IMG/VR virus record: IMGVR_UViG_3300028127_000003
Source: a virus
Length of the DNA stretch: 64,000 nucleotides
Strand: one strand, 5' to 3'
Shown here piece after piece: positions 286-24,577 of the stretch. Numbering within the stretch: position 1 is the first letter of the stretch; every line of letters begins with the position of its first letter. The position numbers and the translations under genes are program-made. The notes under the pieces are model-generated. The model did not search any database and had not been told where the DNA came from. It saw only the letters and a program-made list of their open reading frames with translations.

Positions 286-330
286 CTTTTAATAATATTT
301 AAATAGTTCGGTTTCTTCTTCTACCGTCCC

Positions 331-921
331 ATTGTACTTTCTTGGTTTGACCAAGAATTCTAAACCTAGAAACTCTACTATTCAGACTTGCTCTTTCGTG
401 GTTTATCTGAGTGTTTCCGTTGTTTGACTGTTCACTGTTCATGATTTAAACTGTTTTTATCATTACTTACCCCCTAAGAACCTAGCTTTCACTAGGTTCT
501 GGGTTATAACATAGAAGGATCGTGTACTAAGGTATACTAGCCTTAGAAGATCGTCTTATTGTATGATATACTGCATACCAACTAACTTTACTATTATTTC
601 AAGTTCTACTCAAGATGGTTAATCTCGTTATAGCGCCACAATGGCTTTAGTTGTACTTTATCCCCTATAAGATAGGATTATTCAGTCAGTTTACGGCAAG
701 GGTTCCTTTCGGCTGCTTGCAATGCTCTCGGAAAAATCAGTTTAGATTTATCTTTTCCGATCTACCACTATCTACTCTGTCGAGTCTCAATTACTCACTT
801 CTGCAATCGAGCCGAAACTTGTTCGGTGTCTTAGTGTGCCTTAATCCCTCTTTCCATTAGGATTTTTTCGGCAATACACTCACATTCTAGATGATCAATC
901 TGGTAATGTGCCTTCTACAAT
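331..921 (-). ncRNA. Large structured ncRNA, ROOL-like (~590 nt)
   Basis: No credible ORF over 650 nt between two genes. Ends pair (ATTGTA/TACAAT). Many internal helices: CACATT/AATGTG, TCGGAAAA/TTTTTCCGA, GCAAG..CC-GAAA-GG..CTTGC, AGAACCTAG/CTAGGTTCT, TCAGA/TCTGA, CTTGG/CCAAG. Motifs CTAGAATGTG, GACAGAGT, CATTGCAAGCAGCCGAAAGGAA, TAAAGTACAA and ATTGTGGCGCTATAACGA match my recollection of ROOL RNAs. Confidence 0.72.
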
Positions 922-922
922 A

Positions 923-933
923 TGTTAAAGAAC
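923..933 (-). promoter_or_regulatory. boxA-like antitermination element (GTTCTTTAACA)
   Basis: Minus strand GTTCTTTAACA immediately 5' of the ROOL-like RNA; canonical boxA is TGCTCTTTAACA. Confidence 0.55.
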
Positions 934-957: not shown

Positions 958-1140
958 TTAGACTTTTGCTTTATTTGCTTCAGAAACTGCAACTCTTACA
1001 TCTTGCGCTAACGCTTTGATAGCTTGCATTCCTTTTCTTACTCTTGTTCCTGCTGCTTTGTTTCCTTTTTCGTTAAACTTAGTAGCGTCGTCCTGAATTG
1101 AATCCAGGGTTTCTTGGATTTGTGATAATAAATTTGTCAT
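958..1140 (-). CDS. Histone H1-like (Hc1-family) small basic protein, Bacteroidota type
   Basis: DATKF.EKGNKAAGTRVRK motif typical of Bacteroidetes histone H1-like proteins. Confidence 0.8.
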   Translation of the reverse strand: MTNLLSQIQETLDSIQDDATKFNEKGNKAAGTRVRKGMQAIKALAQDVRVAVSEANKAKV

Positions 1141-1202: not shown

Positions 1203-1670
1203 TCAACTTTTATTGAATTTTTTTTCAATTAATTCTAAACTTTTTACATGCTCTACTTCCCATACTCTATTTCTGAGTTCTGTGCTTGAAAAACCATGAT
1301 CTCTTTTATTATATATGATCTCGATTCCTCTCTTTACACATGTATCTTTTCCTGTAAAATTCTTATCTTTATATTCGATACCTATTACTCTACAATCAAT
1401 ATCGAAACTTGCGAAAATATCTTCGAGATCCTTTTCAGTTTGGTAAGGGACTATTTCATCTACATATCTACAAGCCTTAACTTGAATGTATCTTTCGACT
1501 AAAGACTGGATAGGAGGGTTCTTGGAATCAGGTCGATCAATTGAGGGATCTGTTTGTAAAGCAACTATTAGATAATCGCACTCTTTCTTAGCTTCCTCTA
1601 GCATCTTTACATGACCTGCATGAAACAGATCAAATGTAGAGCATGTAATTCCGGTTCTCTTATTTTGCAT
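1203..1670 (-). CDS. Cytidylyltransferase (glycerol-3-phosphate cytidylyltransferase, TagD-like)
   Basis: FDLFHAGH (HxGH) motif, ERYIQVKACRYVDE, R..GFSSTELR. Confidence 0.85.
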   Translation of the reverse strand: MQNKRTGITCSTFDLFHAGHVKMLEEAKKECDYLIVALQTDPSIDRPDSKNPPIQSLVERYIQVKACRYVDEIVPYQTEKDLEDIFASFDIDCRVIGIEYKDKNFTGKDTCVKRGIEIIYNKRDHGFSSTELRNRVWEVEHVKSLELIEKKFNKS

Positions 1671-1893
1671 GTTCTTCTTCTATTTTCTCGTATTTATACA
1701 CACCTTTAATTATATTATTAAGGGCAATTCCCTGTGATGTTGCATCTCTAAAGGCATGGTAGTCGTTTTCTTCTACTTCTTTATATAAATAAGTTCCATG
1801 TTTAAATCCAACATATAATTCCTTTGTCTTATAAATATATGAAGACGATACAATAGTCGAAGAGTCGTATAAGTTAGTTTGTGTTGTTATCAT
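1660..1893 (-). CDS. KTSC domain protein
   Basis: SS.I.S..Y....ELYV.F..GTY.Y..V....Y..F..A.S.G...N..IKG.Y pattern. Confidence 0.8.
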   Translation of the reverse strand: MITTQTNLYDSSTIVSSSYIYKTKELYVGFKHGTYLYKEVEENDYHAFRDATSQGIALNNIIKGVYKYEKIEEEHAK

Positions 1894-2174
1894 TTCTTTT
1901 TCTTTTTGAGTGCTGCTTTCTTTTTTGCTTCCTTTGCCTTAAGTGCTTCTTTTTCTTTCTTTGCTCTTTCCTTTAAAACGTTTTTAGGTTCAAGTTTAAT
2001 ATCTACATAACCGTCTTTGTCTTTTTTGATACAAGTTTCACAATATGGCGTAGAATACATATTAGTCTTATCGGGTAGTGATCTATTCATGTATCTCGTT
2101 ACTGTATATAAATCTCCATCTGGAAAATCTTCGATACAACCCGAGCATACTGTTAACTTTATTTCTCTTGCCAT
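1890..2174 (-). CDS. Hypothetical protein with two CxxC pairs and a Lys-rich tail
   Basis: ORF track; CSGC and CETC; downstream of the promoter at 2179-2207. Confidence 0.6.
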   Translation of the reverse strand: MAREIKLTVCSGCIEDFPDGDLYTVTRYMNRSLPDKTNMYSTPYCETCIKKDKDGYVDIKLEPKNVLKERAKKEKEALKAKEAKKKAALKKKKK

Positions 2175-2179
2175 GTAGT

Positions 2180-2326
2180 TTATACTTCTTTTTGAGAATT
2201 TGTTTCTATAAACGCATTGTGATTTTTATTATCAGTGCCGCAGAATCCACATTTTTCTAAATAAGGAGAATTCATTGAGCCACATCCACATCGCCATATA
2301 TGATCTGTTATTGATTTATATTTCAT
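2180..2326 (-). CDS. Small zinc-ribbon protein (48 aa)
   Basis: Own translation MKYKSITDHIWRCGCGSMNSPYLEKCGFCGTDNK...; fills the gap between two genes; W-x-C-x-C...C-x2-C. Confidence 0.6.
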   Translation of the reverse strand: MKYKSITDHIWRCGCGSMNSPYLEKCGFCGTDNKNHNAFIETNSQKEV

Positions 2327-3008
2327 AATTTTTTAAAAATACATTAAGTTTCGTAAGATCCATTGTCGTATCCTTTGGGAAATGATCAGGGGCAGGTGCT
2401 GAATCAACATCTTTTTCTCTAGATGCATATTCATATACGCTCTTCGAAGGTGTTCCTATATTCCATACACCTTTCTGCTCTGCTTTAATTAGCTTGATCC
2501 ACTGATTTACTAATACATCTACATCATCGAAATTTCCTATCTGATCGTTCCATGCAGTTGCATAAGGAAATGGATTAATTCTGTGACTCCCTCTTACGAT
2601 TAGATAATCATCTGAATGTCTAATGATATGCTCGTCTGCTAATAATTTAGAATATGCATACCATGTTTTATCAGGAATAGGAATATCTTCTTCGCTTGCA
2701 TTTGGATTTGAACCAGCATATACGTAATCTGTAGAATAGTGAATTAGTTTTATTCCTCTATGATTACAGAATTCAGCCAAGTTTGCAACTGAATGATAAT
2801 TAGTTTGAAGCATTTTAGATTTATCATCAGAATAGGTGTCTGTGTATGCAATGCAATTGACTATCGTAGTGCAGTCCTTTGGAATTAAATTAATAACACT
2901 ACTAAGACTATTAAAATTTAAAAAGTCCTGTTTTCTTGAAATATAAGACCATCCTGTTTGTCCTATAAGTTCTGATGCTAATAAACCGTCTCCTAAAACT
3001 ATTGTCAT
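2316..3008 (-). CDS. rmlD: dTDP-4-dehydrorhamnose reductase-like SDR (RmlD family)
   Basis: VLGDGLLAS Rossmann motif, IVNCIAYT, HYSTDYVY, YAYSK (YxxxK). Confidence 0.75.
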   Translation of the reverse strand: MTIVLGDGLLASELIGQTGWSYISRKQDFLNFNSLSSVINLIPKDCTTIVNCIAYTDTYSDDKSKMLQTNYHSVANLAEFCNHRGIKLIHYSTDYVYAGSNPNASEEDIPIPDKTWYAYSKLLADEHIIRHSDDYLIVRGSHRINPFPYATAWNDQIGNFDDVDVLVNQWIKLIKAEQKGVWNIGTPSKSVYEYASREKDVDSAPAPDHFPKDTTMDLTKLNVFLKNYEI

Positions 3009-8703: not shown

Positions 8704-8712
8704 ATTAAAGGG

Positions 8713-8786
8713 TACTCTCGACGGGACTTGAACCCGTAACCTTGACCGTATAAGGATCCTGCTCTAACCGATTGAGCTACAAGAGT
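8713..8786 (-). tRNA. tRNA-Ile(UAU)
   Basis: Acceptor ACTCTTG/CGAGAGT, D arm GCTC/GAGC, anticodon loop CT-TAT-AC, T arm ACGGG-TTCAAGT-CCCGT; no encoded CCA. Confidence 0.85.
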
Positions 8787-8795
8787 ATATATTCG

Positions 8796-9420: not shown

Positions 9421-9969
9421 CTATCTTCTGAATGGATCTTCGTCGCCTGAGCCTGGTTCGCTTGGTTCACTTGGTCCTGGATTCAAACCTGGATCGTTCG
9501 GTCCTTCTCCAATACCTTCACATGAATTAATCGATGTAACTCTTCCACCTGAAACTGTTGCTATAACAATTTCTGCTTTATCGAAATCTTCAACACCTTG
9601 TATTTTAATGTGAGCAGTCCCGGTCAACGAGCCGGATTGATTTGTGTAAATATAATTTCCAACTAACGGTAATTTACCGGTTCCATTATGGAAGTAGAAG
9701 AATTTCATATCTTCTAAACATACATCAAACCATTTAACACGTGTGGAAACTTCTGAACTTCCCATAAGATTTTTAAGACTTGAGTAGGAATGGTCATAAG
9801 CAAAGAACTCAGACATAGCATGTGGCTGTGATTCATTCGGTTTACTTGGACTCTGATCATTTAGAGTTGAATGAGTTGATAAACCACCCAAACTAACGTT
9901 TGAATTAATTTGTCCCATTTCTGCGGTAATATTTGAAAGGCTAATTTGCCCACCTATTTGTAATGCCAT
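9421..9969 (-). CDS. Hypothetical, possibly virion-associated protein with Pro-rich tail
   Basis: N-terminal MAL..GG.ISLS.I..E...PH.MSEF..Y motif recalled from phage tail-associated proteins; GATAAATA upstream. Confidence 0.55.
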   Translation of the reverse strand: MALQIGGQISLSNITAEMGQINSNVSLGGLSTHSTLNDQSPSKPNESQPHAMSEFFAYDHSYSSLKNLMGSSEVSTRVKWFDVCLEDMKFFYFHNGTGKLPLVGNYIYTNQSGSLTGTAHIKIQGVEDFDKAEIVIATVSGGRVTSINSCEGIGEGPNDPGLNPGPSEPSEPGSGDEDPFRR

Positions 9970-10056
9970 ATTAAAAATTATGATTTTTTTAAAATTGTTA
10001 TAGAGTATTTATCTGTTTTACTCTTGGATAATTACCATTTATTGATTATTATCTTA

Positions 10057-10236
10057 CTATTTTTCAATAATACTTTGAATACCTGTAAATACAGTCCCAA
10101 ACCCTAAAACTGTCCAGAATTCAGGGTCTCCAATATAGGCAAAAGATGCAAAAATCCATAAAAATCCCATTAATCTGAAATATTGGTTTGACAATCCTCT
10201 TACAATGCTTTTTAAAATACTTAAAACTTTTTTCAT
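10057..10236 (-). CDS. Small membrane protein (59 aa)
   Basis: Own translation MKKVLSILKSIVRGLSNQYFRLMGFLWIFASFAYIGDPEFWTVLGFGTVFTGIQSIIEK. Confidence 0.55.
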   Translation of the reverse strand: MKKVLSILKSIVRGLSNQYFRLMGFLWIFASFAYIGDPEFWTVLGFGTVFTGIQSIIEK

Positions 10237-10241
10237 ATAAA

Positions 10242-10601
10242 TTATTTAGAAATTATTAATTCTTCTTTCTTTGCCTTAATGTGTTTACAAGGACCTCGAA
10301 AGAAATTACTTGCGGGACAATCACAACTCCAATCTTTACCATTAAATTGAACATTGTAATATGACTTACCGTTACTAGATAATACCTTAAAGGTTTTAGT
10401 TTGTTTCACTTGATTTGTGACTAACTTTTTAACAGGTTTGTTAATAACTGGAGCGTCTTCAGGTTCTACTAAGATTATCTGCTCTCGTGTAGTTCCAGGT
10501 TCAACGGGATGCCATCCAGGGCACACATAAGTTCCACTTAAGGTTTTAACTATCGCAAAATCTCGGAATGGAGGTTGTCTTTGGATTTTATATGTTTTCA
10601 T
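10242..10601 (-). CDS. SWIM zinc-finger protein
   Basis: Y.V...WSCDCP......PCKHI. Confidence 0.8.
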   Translation of the reverse strand: MKTYKIQRQPPFRDFAIVKTLSGTYVCPGWHPVEPGTTREQIILVEPEDAPVINKPVKKLVTNQVKQTKTFKVLSSNGKSYYNVQFNGKDWSCDCPASNFFRGPCKHIKAKKEELIISK

Positions 10602-10888
10602 TATATAGAGTATGCTTTAATTCTGTCCATCTGCTTTTTTATATAGACACAAGATTCAGAAAATGCATCTACTTCAGGATATTTAAATCCTAACCATAGA
10701 GTTTCAATGTTTGCAGGGCCTGCACCTCCAATAATATTGTCGATCCATTCACAAAAAGAATAAAGCTCATTAGCTTCATCGCTATATAGGCTTTCTTCAA
10801 TATAGTAATATCCTTCTGTAAAGGATCCTATTGTTTTTGCTCCGTTTAAAAGTAATTCTTTGTTTCTGTTTGAAAGTTCTGTGTACAT
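10601..10888 (-). CDS. Hypothetical protein
   Basis: Directly downstream of early repeat copy 2. Confidence 0.7.
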   Translation of the reverse strand: MYTELSNRNKELLLNGAKTIGSFTEGYYYIEESLYSDEANELYSFCEWIDNIIGGAGPANIETLWLGFKYPEVDAFSESCVYIKKQMDRIKAYSI

Positions 10889-24566: not shown

Positions 24567-24577
24567 TGTCAAAGAAC
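24567..24577 (-). promoter_or_regulatory. boxA-like element (GTTCTTTGACA)
   Basis: Just 3' of promoter 24583-24611, on the transcript leading to tRNA-Ser/Asp. Confidence 0.5.

What the first reader, a model, noticed from the sequence alone, without database searches (positions are those of the whole stretch)
331..921. ROOL-like giant structured ncRNA in a Bacteroidota-infecting T4-like phage
Seen: ~590 nt with no credible ORF, closed by an ATTGTA/TACAAT helix and packed with helices and GAAA loops, with a boxA-like leader. From memory, its linear motifs (CTAGAATGTG, AGGCAC..TAAGACA, GACAGAGT, CATTGCAAGCAGCCGAAAGGAA, TAAAGTACAA, ATTGTGGCGCTATAACGA) occur in the same order in ROOL RNAs. Established: ROOL is of unknown function, was described mainly from Firmicutes/Fusobacteria and rumen metagenomes, and self-assembles into RNA-only cages. 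Inference: a copy in a probable Flavobacteriales jumbo phage would extend the family or define a divergent sister class, in a lytic-phage setting where its function could be tested.
Basis: partly seen in the sequence, partly recalled or inferred. Interest (0 to 1): 0.85.

Follow-up and report, generated by a model that had tools for sequence, protein, structure and literature searches.

The report
Two-core manA-like phage RNA gene
The flagged stretch holds a real, intricately folded RNA of about 420 bases from a marine T4-like phage; it is not a ROOL RNA but an enlarged, two-module relative of the "manA" RNA, which a 2026 preprint reports to build RNA-only cages, and its role in infection is unknown.

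Summary
The RNA runs on the minus strand from a boxA-like leader (933-923) through a 404-nt core (916-513). The core is closed by a covarying helix, AGAAGG/CCUUCU, not by ATTGTA/TACAAT. The rest of the flagged interval (331-512) is a hairpin plus part of a conserved 47-aa ORF. About 100 homologs exist in marine metagenomes. On 51 of them, 98 predicted pairs are 98.9% paired, 45 show compensatory changes, and one pseudoknot covaries in at least 7 versions. The only Rfam resemblance is manA (RF01745), below cut-off in all 19 copies tested (24.6-32.6 bits against 55.2). The RNA contains two manA-like modules. Most copies lie beside tRNA-Ala(UGC), so it behaves as a stand-alone stable-RNA gene rather than a 5'-UTR switch. 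A 2026 preprint reports that manA forms RNA-only cages; whether this RNA assembles is untested. This scan has already found the same family on other DNA (five earlier reports), with the same reading. Verdict: new variant of a known kind.

The parts
923..933 (-). boxA-like leader GUUCUUUAACA, 17-21 nt upstream of P1
   Evidence: Perfect match to GYTCTTTAANA (PMC5725501). 71 of 79 distinct copies match GYTCTTTRANA at a fixed distance from P1. Where tRNA-Ala lies upstream, the box starts 7-10 nt after the tRNA 3' end.
513..916 (-). Structured core of the RNA, from the P1 5' arm to the P1 3' arm (404 nt)
   Evidence: nhmmer finds about 100 full-length homologs. RNAalifold predicts 98 pairs, 45 with compensatory changes. 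Controls: 98.9% paired against 35-44% when slid, and 0 of 500 shuffles reach the observed values. Fold z-score -2.97.
911..916 (-). P1 5' arm AGAAGG; pairs with 513-518 (CCUUCU)
   Evidence: Three of the six pairs switch between GC and AU in about half of the 51 sequences.
881..910 (-). P2 hairpin with an invariant UGAUC in its apical loop
   Evidence: Five of its seven pairs (helices 2 and 3) show compensatory changes. Loop variants are listed.
875..879 (-). Long-range helix LR1, 5' arm GUGUA; pairs with UACAC at 522-526
   Evidence: 100% paired; one pair covaries (AU in 42, GC in 6). It occupies the position of the manA closing helix.
766..872 (-). Module A: GCC-GAAAAAA-hairpin-UUAAGGC, then a stem enclosing three hairpins (manA-like core, outer copy)
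   Evidence: Helices 5-10 covary. Model R1, built only from module B, hits this place in the window (14.4 bits) and the same register in all 18 relatives tested (12.1-23.2 bits).
758..763 (-). Long-range helix LR2, 5' arm AGAUCG; pairs with CGAUCU at 548-553
   Evidence: Three of six pairs show compensatory changes and 99.3% of cells are paired.
727..759 (-). Middle hairpin H (CGGAAAA...UUUUCCG) with a conserved CUAAAC loop
   Evidence: Covarying versions GAAAGAU/AUCUUUC, GAAAUAG/CUAUUUC and GGAAAA/UUUUCC. Its 3' arm is also complementary to the module A hairpin loop in 49 of 51 sequences, so the pairing there is unresolved.
696..720 (-). P7 hairpin GCAAG...CC-GARA-GG...CUUGC
   Evidence: Nearly invariant and 100% paired. 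It was used as the anchor of the collection scans.
579..686 (-). Module B: ACU-GAAUAA-hairpin-AUAAAGU, then a stem enclosing three hairpins (manA-like core, inner copy)
   Evidence: Rfam manA aligns here, 27.4 bits, E 6.6e-5, with its helices coinciding with helices 14-20. R1 scores 135.2 bits.
555..560 (-). Pseudoknot PK1, 3' arm (AAUAAG); pairs with the module B hairpin loop at 668-673 (AUCUUA)
   Evidence: A 6-8 bp duplex forms in all 51 sequences, in at least 7 covarying versions. Columns 297/418 are the second-highest covariation pair in the mutual-information screen.
527..546 (-). P10 hairpin; its loop carries a conserved GUAUA that, with the first stem base, reads the self-complementary GUAUAC
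   Evidence: Four of six pairs show compensatory changes. It corresponds to the last hairpin of manA.
477..500 (-). Separate hairpin just downstream of the RNA; present in this lineage where 47 of 51 copies have a U-run
   Evidence: AGAACCUAG/CUAGGUUCU changes to AGACCUAA/UUAGGUCU in L084. A run of at least 4 U follows P1 in 47 of 51 sequences, but not in the window.
299..442 (-).
   Evidence: Conserved at protein level in L084 (48 aa; NGNTQ.N, RVSR, TKKV.W..RRR.R.I) and absent in L089. No NCBIfam match.

Best explanation
Window 933-513 (minus strand) encodes a stand-alone, non-coding, highly structured phage RNA of about 420 nt. It is an enlarged, two-module relative of the manA RNA. Shown here: the fold. 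An outer helix P1 encloses a hairpin (P2) and a long-range helix LR1. LR1 encloses manA-like module A, a second long-range helix LR2 and a terminal hairpin (P10). LR2 encloses two hairpins and manA-like module B, whose hairpin loop forms a pseudoknot with the 3' linker. The outer path (P2, LR1, module A, LR2, P10) mirrors the whole Rfam manA layout, with module B sitting where manA has its P8 hairpin. Also shown: the gene sits in phage stable-RNA context. A boxA-like element precedes it, and in most relatives tRNA-Ala(UGC) lies on the same strand 7-10 nt upstream of boxA, or 9-47 nt to a few hundred nt downstream. Inferred: it is transcribed with the tRNAs under rrn-type (NusB/NusE) antitermination, which would protect a long untranslated transcript from Rho. 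It is then released by the tRNA-processing enzymes and acts in trans. Inferred from the manA cryo-EM preprint and from conserved self-complementary loop cores (GAUC, UUAA, GUAUAC): it may self-associate into RNA-only oligomers or cages. What such an assembly does during infection is unknown. The window's copy is atypical: it follows an Hc1 histone-like gene, ends in a hairpin instead of a U-run, and is separated from tRNA-Ala by inserted genes.
For: Real structured RNA: about 100 full-length homologs. 51 representatives at 70-97% identity give 98 pairs, 45 with compensatory changes. Controls: 98.9% paired against 35-44% when slid, and 0 of 500 shuffles. PK1 covaries in at least 7 versions. No conserved ORF. 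manA relation: sub-threshold but full-length manA matches in the window and all 18 relatives tested. The aligned manA helices coincide with independently covarying helices. Reciprocal model R1 finds S-SSM7 manA (16.1 bits) and P-RSM4 manA (10.3 bits) in register. Two modules: R1 hits module A in 18 of 18 relatives at a fixed offset. Stand-alone gene in tRNA context: 71 of 86 distinct copies have a same-strand tRNA nearby, and 10 of the other 15 lack enough flank to tell. Downstream genes vary. boxA. Cage formation by manA: preprint 10.64898/2026.07.01.735769. Conserved palindromic loop cores.
Against: manA scores are only about half the Rfam cut-off, and the reciprocal hits are weak (E 0.11 and 2.6). 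Two canonical manA RNAs (S-CREM1 and P-SSM2) were not found by R1, so common descent is likely but not proven. No expression data were examined here. The window's own copy has no adjacent tRNA within the contig and no U-run. Canonical manA is rarely next to tRNAs: 7 of 105. boxA function in Bacteroidota phages is untested, and the box could instead pair with AAGAGC inside the RNA. Self-assembly is extrapolated from single-module RNAs studied in vitro, and 4-nt palindromes in loops are weak evidence.
Confidence: 0.7

Rival explanations
1. It is a ROOL RNA or a divergent sister class of ROOL.
For: Shared setting only: ROOL and GOLLD are phage or prophage RNAs often near tRNA islands and they form nanocages (PMC5737381; bioRxiv 10.1101/2024.12.08.627333). 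This RNA is also phage-borne and tRNA-associated.
Against: No ROOL match at E<=10 with permissive filters on the region or on the whole contig, nor in 18 relatives at E<=0.1. The same model finds a genuine ROOL at 130.4 bits. [quoted passage not shown]
Confidence: 0.02
2. It is a cis-acting 5'-UTR element (riboswitch-like), as originally proposed for manA, controlling the downstream small ORF and MarC gene.
For: Canonical manA mostly lies upstream of protein genes: 96 of 105 sampled copies have no tRNA nearby, for example upstream of purL in P-SSM2. In the window a small ORF and a MarC gene follow on the same strand.
Against: In the family the downstream element is usually a tRNA or an unrelated gene. 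Some copies sit between two tRNAs with gaps of 7-15 nt. A U-run follows P1 in 47 of 51 copies. The closing helix P1 seals the whole structure and no alternative expression platform is conserved. The small ORF is absent from most relatives.
Confidence: 0.08
3. It is an independent RNA class whose likeness to manA is convergent or due to chance, so the manA cage results do not bear on it.
For: All manA scores are below the gathering cut-off (24.6-32.6 against 55.2 bits). R1 misses two of four canonical manA RNAs. Peripheral elements, closing topology and context all differ.
Against: The match covers the full manA model in every copy. It reproduces five independently covarying helices together with the conserved unpaired GAAUAA and UAAGGU strings. 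Both families live in marine T4-like phages, and canonical manA also sometimes abuts tRNAs with 0-1 nt gaps.
Confidence: 0.15
4. It acts on the neighbouring tRNAs, for example as a processing, folding or charging cofactor for tRNA-Ala, or is itself a ribozyme.
For: Near-universal linkage to tRNA-Ala(UGC) on the same strand. Its size and complexity are typical of RNAs with sophisticated biochemistry (argument in PMC5737381).
Against: No match to RNase P, tmRNA, T-box, intron or known ribozyme models at E<=10. ARAGORN finds no tmRNA. Linkage to one tRNA may simply reflect inherited gene order. In the window's lineage the tRNA is about 1.9 kb away.
Confidence: 0.05

Closest known systems
manA RNA motif (Rfam RF01745; Weinberg et al. 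2010, PMC2864571; cryo-EM assemblies in Ren et al. 2026 preprint, doi 10.64898/2026.07.01.735769)
   Same: Core architecture: a hairpin flanked by conserved GAAUAA and UAAGGU strings, followed by a stem that encloses three hairpins, then a terminal hairpin with a GUAUAC-type loop, all enclosed by a closing helix. Habitat: marine T4-like phages. Canonical copies occasionally abut tRNAs directly (S-CREM1, S-SSM7).
   Different: About 420 nt against under 200 nt. Two core modules instead of one, with the second nested where manA has P8. An extra outermost helix P1, a loop-linker pseudoknot and a boxA leader. Scores reach only about half the Rfam cut-off. More than 80% of copies lie beside tRNA-Ala, against about 7% of canonical manA beside any tRNA. 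The likely host is Bacteroidota rather than cyanobacteria.
ROOL RNA (RF03087) and GOLLD RNA
   Same: Large ornate RNAs of phages and prophages, often near tRNA islands, of unknown function. They are reported to form RNA-only nanocages, as manA now is.
   Different: No sequence or structure match to either model. Smaller, with a different junction layout. Found in marine Bacteroidota-type phages rather than Firmicutes, Fusobacteria, rumen or lake sources.
rrn-operon boxA antitermination elements (NusB/NusE site; consensus GYTCTTTAANA, Baniulyte et al. 2017, PMC5725501)
   Same: The leader matches the consensus and precedes a long untranslated structured RNA. In some copies the order tRNA-Ala(UGC), boxA, large RNA recalls the 16S-23S spacer of rrn operons (the spacer layout is from general knowledge).
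   Different: Phage-borne and placed in front of a non-ribosomal RNA. Binding of Nus factors has not been tested.
Stable RNAs of unknown function encoded in the phage T4 tRNA gene cluster (from general knowledge, not checked here)
   Same: Non-tRNA stable RNAs embedded in a T4-type phage tRNA cluster and presumably released by tRNA processing.
   Different: The T4 RNAs are much smaller, and no sequence relation was examined.

Membership tests
ROOL (RF03087) | Match to the Rfam covariance model at or above 99.1 bits | tested here: not met
   No match at E<=10 on the region or on the whole contig. Positive control: pMP118 ROOL scores 130.4 bits.
ROOL (RF03087) | [quoted passage not shown] | tested here: not met
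   Core of 404 nt with two three-hairpin junctions plus enclosing junctions, one well-supported pseudoknot and one possible.
   In a genuine ROOL locus the 22-mer has 9 mismatches at best and the 18-mer 7, and there is no collinear blastn similarity. Only one ROOL example was compared.
ROOL (RF03087) | Phage or prophage location, often near tRNA islands | tested here: met
   T4-like phage contig. 71 of 86 distinct family copies have a same-strand tRNA nearby.
ROOL (RF03087) | Self-assembly into an RNA-only nanocage | not testable with these tools
   Needs in vitro transcription and cryo-EM or SEC.
manA (RF01745) | Match to the Rfam covariance model at or above 55.2 bits | tested here: not met
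   27.4 bits in the window and 24.6-32.6 bits in 18 relatives. Canonical copies score 96.6-181.6 bits.
manA (RF01745) | Core fold: GAAUAA-flanked hairpin, three-hairpin junction and terminal hairpin inside a closing helix | tested here: met
   The manA alignment places its helices on independently covarying helices 14-21. The layout is present twice.
manA (RF01745) | Single module of under 200 nt | tested here: not met
   Two modules in a 404-nt core.
manA (RF01745) | Reciprocal detection of canonical manA by a model of this family | tested here: inconclusive
   R1 finds S-SSM7 manA (16.1 bits, E 0.11) and P-RSM4 manA (10.3 bits, E 2.6) in register, but not S-CREM1 or P-SSM2 manA.
manA (RF01745) | [quoted passage not shown] | tested here: not met
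   Mostly beside tRNA-Ala or tRNA-Gly, with variable downstream genes.
manA (RF01745) | Formation of closed RNA-only oligomers through kissing loops | not testable with these tools
   Only conserved self-complementary loop cores could be noted.
boxA antitermination element | Sequence match to GYTCTTTAANA at the 5' side of an untranslated stable-RNA transcript | tested here: met
   Window 933-923 matches perfectly. 43 of 79 copies match exactly and 71 of 79 match when R is allowed at position 8.
boxA antitermination element | Binding of NusB/NusE and resistance to Rho | not testable with these tools
   Needs biochemical or genetic tests.

The most novel reading that the evidence does not exclude
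The two-core RNA is a covalently linked pair of manA protomers that assembles in infected Flavobacteria into an RNA-only oligomer or cage with a geometry different from single-core manA. Together with ROOL and GOLLD it would make a third, independently evolved, tRNA-island-linked class of phage RNA containers. The shared genomic niche would then point to a common job, such as holding or shielding tRNAs, ribosomal parts or defence factors.
Probability: 0.22. Interest if true: 0.85.

Novelty: new variant of a known kind. Interest (0 to 1): 0.6.

Why it matters
manA was filed for 15 years as a possible riboswitch, and a 2026 preprint now reports that it builds RNA-only cages. This family shows that the manA core also exists as a roughly 400-nt two-core RNA. 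It is abundant in marine metagenomes, is carried by T4-like phages of probable Flavobacteria hosts, and is wired like a stable RNA, with a boxA leader and tRNA neighbours. That setting argues against a switch function for this branch. It also links manA-type RNAs to the same genomic niche as ROOL and GOLLD. Finally, it provides a natural 'tandem protomer' for testing how RNA cages assemble and what they do. The family is absent from Rfam 15, so phage annotation pipelines currently leave it as an empty gap.

Tried and rejected
1. ROOL, GOLLD, OLE and every other Rfam family: no match at E<=10 apart from manA and two chance-level hits, snoZ169 and PK-repZ.
2. blastn against 50,697 isolated phage genomes: no match, so no cultured phage carrying the RNA was found.
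3. Loci found through the cytidylyltransferase neighbour (80 loci): only two carry the RNA, so this gene is not a useful anchor.
4. The pattern GAGTGTAT..TAAGGCAC was too loose and returned mostly chance hits.
5. blastn with S-CREM1 manA found no other manA, so I used the Rfam model on named cyanophages instead.
6. The idea that manA in general is tRNA-embedded is rejected: 7 of 105 sampled canonical copies abut a tRNA.
7. The second boxA-like site at 24567-24577 precedes a small protein ORF, not a second large RNA. Two such sites in the window are not beyond chance, since 11 of 100 shuffles gave at least two.
8. Leader pairing GUUCUU/AAGAGC is mostly invariant, with one compensatory case and four disruptions, and is left unresolved.
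9. An antisense ORF (window 651-860, plus strand) is rejected: its length matches the composition expectation, the open frame is not conserved, and indels are not in threes.
10. tmRNA, RNase P and intron readings: no support.

Full report
**What is at the coordinates.** The window is the end of a 178.7-kb IMG/VR virus contig. All nearby genes are on the minus strand. In order they are DNA ligase, an RmlD-like epimerase, KTSC, a cytidylyltransferase-like gene and an Hc1 histone-like gene (958-1140). Then comes a gap of about 660 nt (299-957), followed by a MarC membrane protein gene (1-285). All are present on the minus strand in the order given. The minus strand folds better than the plus strand (z -4.8 against -2.8 for 299-957).

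**Family and true limits.** nhmmer found homologs directly downstream of Hc1 on three other viral contigs. Pattern scans built from invariant blocks then gave two more viral copies. They also gave 108 metagenome stretches, and about 100 of these are full-length homologs. Conservation covers only window ~938-505. Downstream of it the window has a hairpin (477-500), which covaries with L084. After that comes a 47-aa ORF (442-299) that is conserved at protein level in L084 and absent from L089.

**Structure.** Fifty-one representatives (70-97% identical) were aligned (A1).
- RNAalifold predicts 98 pairs, 45 with compensatory double changes.
- On the tool's controls, 98.9% of cells are paired against 35-44% when the 3' partners are slid.
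- 45 pairs have double changes, against 2-13 when slid.
- No shuffle out of 500 reaches the observed pairing or covariation.
- The closing helix P1 is AGAAGG (916-911) with CCUUCU (518-513), and three of its pairs alternate between GC and AU.
- Two long-range helices tie the halves together: GUGUA/UACAC and AGAUCG/CGAUCU.
- A mutual-information screen flagged columns 297/418 outside the nested fold.
- Sequence by sequence, the module B hairpin loop pairs with the 3' linker over 6-8 bp in all 51 sequences, in at least seven covarying versions. This is pseudoknot PK1.
- The middle segment forms a further covarying hairpin that MAFFT had misaligned.
- The module A hairpin loop is complementary to that hairpin's 3' arm in 49 of 51 sequences. 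It could be a second pseudoknot or an alternative pairing; I could not decide.

There is no conserved ORF on either strand. Open stretches fit the composition expectation, the open frame differs between copies, and most indels are not multiples of three.

**Family assignment.** Rfam 15 at gathering thresholds finds only tRNAs in the window.
- *ROOL, GOLLD and OLE.* With permissive filters and E<=10 they are absent from the region. ROOL is also absent from the whole contig. The ROOL search is valid, because it finds the known ROOL of pMP118 at 130.4 bits.
- *manA matches.* The only consistent resemblance is manA (RF01745). The match is full-length at 27.4 bits in the window and 24.6-32.6 bits in all 18 relatives tested, against a cut-off of 55.2. 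Canonical copies score 96.6-181.6 bits.
- *Shared helices.* The manA alignment lays its helices on five helices that covariation supports independently. It also matches the conserved unpaired GAAUAA and UAAGGU strings.
- *Reciprocal model.* Model R1 was built only from module B. It finds S-SSM7 manA (16.1 bits) and P-RSM4 manA (10.3 bits) in register, but misses two others.
- *Second module.* R1 hits the 5' half of the same RNA in the window and in all 18 relatives at a fixed offset, at 12.1-23.2 bits.

So the RNA holds two manA-like modules. Read from the outside, P2, LR1, module A, LR2 and P10 reproduce the complete manA layout, with module B nested where manA has its P8 hairpin. That mapping is my inference. 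Under Rfam's criterion this is not a manA member. It is best described as an enlarged relative.

**Context.** Of 86 distinct copies, 71 have a same-strand tRNA nearby, almost always tRNA-Ala(UGC). Ten of the remaining 15 lack enough flank to tell.
- When tRNA-Ala is upstream, its 3' end lies 7-10 nt before the leader box.
- The next tRNA (Ala or Gly) can start 9-47 nt after P1.
- Some copies are sandwiched between tRNA-Ala and tRNA-Gly.
- A run of at least four U follows P1 in 47 of 51 sequences, but not in the window's lineage.
- In the window's closest relatives tRNA-Ala lies about 1.9 kb downstream, which would be beyond the end of this contig.

The conserved leader GUUCUUU(A/G)A(A/C)A matches the published boxA consensus GYTCTTTAANA. 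The match is perfect in the window and in 43 of 79 copies, and 71 of 79 match with R at position 8. The box lies 17-21 nt before P1.

Canonical manA abuts tRNAs in S-CREM1 (between tRNA-Leu and tRNA-Asn) and in S-SSM7 (tRNA-Gly at the next base), but not in P-SSM2 or P-RSM4. In a sample of 105 distinct canonical copies, only 7 abut a tRNA. Embedding among tRNAs is therefore typical of the two-core family and occasional for manA.

**Phage and host.** The window encodes a tail sheath, large terminase, gp23-like head protein, prohead protease and portal. The head protein is closest to an uncultured huge phage (52%) and, among named phages, to the Prevotella Lak phages (38%). A T9SS type-B sorting domain passes its NCBIfam cut-off. 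Two marine Flavobacteriales and Flavobacteriaceae MAG contigs carry the RNA with tRNA-Ala and tRNA-Gly. A Bacteroidota host is likely but not shown.

**Mechanism.** The fold, its conservation, the boxA-like leader and the tRNA linkage are shown. Three steps are inferred:
- transcription as part of a stable-RNA unit under Nus-type antitermination;
- release by tRNA-processing enzymes;
- action in trans.

A July 2026 preprint reports by cryo-EM that manA RNAs form octamers, decamers and a 60-subunit icosahedral-like cage through kissing loops and a GNRA-receptor contact. It does not mention tRNA. This RNA has invariant self-complementary cores in three apical loops: GAUC, UUAA and GUAUAC. Self-assembly is therefore a reasonable but untested extrapolation. 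ROOL and GOLLD share the phage and tRNA-island setting and also form cages.

**Novelty and prior notes.** I found no description of a two-core manA-type RNA in the papers searched. No Rfam 15 family covers it. The scan itself has reported the same family on other DNA five times, and I reached the same conclusion before reading those notes. What this window adds:
- a clean refutation of the ROOL reading, with a positive control;
- the corrected limits and the hidden small ORF;
- an atypical copy that is detached from its tRNA and follows an Hc1 gene.

Noticed in passing
window 299-442 (-): A 47-aa ORF with a basic C-terminus lies just downstream of the RNA. It is conserved at protein level in L084 (48 aa), absent in L089, and has no NCBIfam match.
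   Followed up: partly
window 958-1140 (-): The phage encodes a 60-aa Hc1-type histone-like protein (Pfam PF07432, 80.4 bits) directly upstream of the RNA. A strong sigma-70-like promoter match (TTGAAA-18-TATAAT, 11 of 12) lies at 1206-1177 and could drive both Hc1 and the RNA.
   Followed up: partly
window 24567-24577 (-): A second boxA-like box (GTTCTTTGACA) lies about 30 nt upstream of a small ORF of roughly 105 aa that is followed by tRNA-Ser and tRNA-Asp on the same strand. Two boxes per window are within chance (11 of 100 shuffles).
   Followed up: partly
L171, L138, L200, L210, L154, L338 (downstream of the RNA): ARAGORN calls the tRNA-Gly that follows the RNA in several relatives with anticodon ACC, which is unusual because A34 is rare in bacteria. 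Other copies have GCC.
   Followed up: no
window 8710-8787 (-): A tRNA-Ile with a UAU anticodon lies in the four-tRNA cluster (Ile, Lys, Arg, Leu).
   Followed up: no
L325 (S-CREM1, record 9745-10643): In cyanophage S-CREM1 three Rfam RNAs (wcaG, manA, abiF) are interleaved with five tRNAs within 900 nt, and manA touches the tRNAs on both sides. The 'cis-regulatory' label for these RNAs looks doubtful in that genome.
   Followed up: partly
window 1203-3008 (-): Nucleotide-sugar genes (a cytidylyltransferase-like or heptose-1-phosphate adenylyltransferase-like gene and an RmlD-like epimerase) lie just upstream. Canonical manA was originally linked to mannose and fructose metabolism genes. No causal link was examined.
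   Followed up: no
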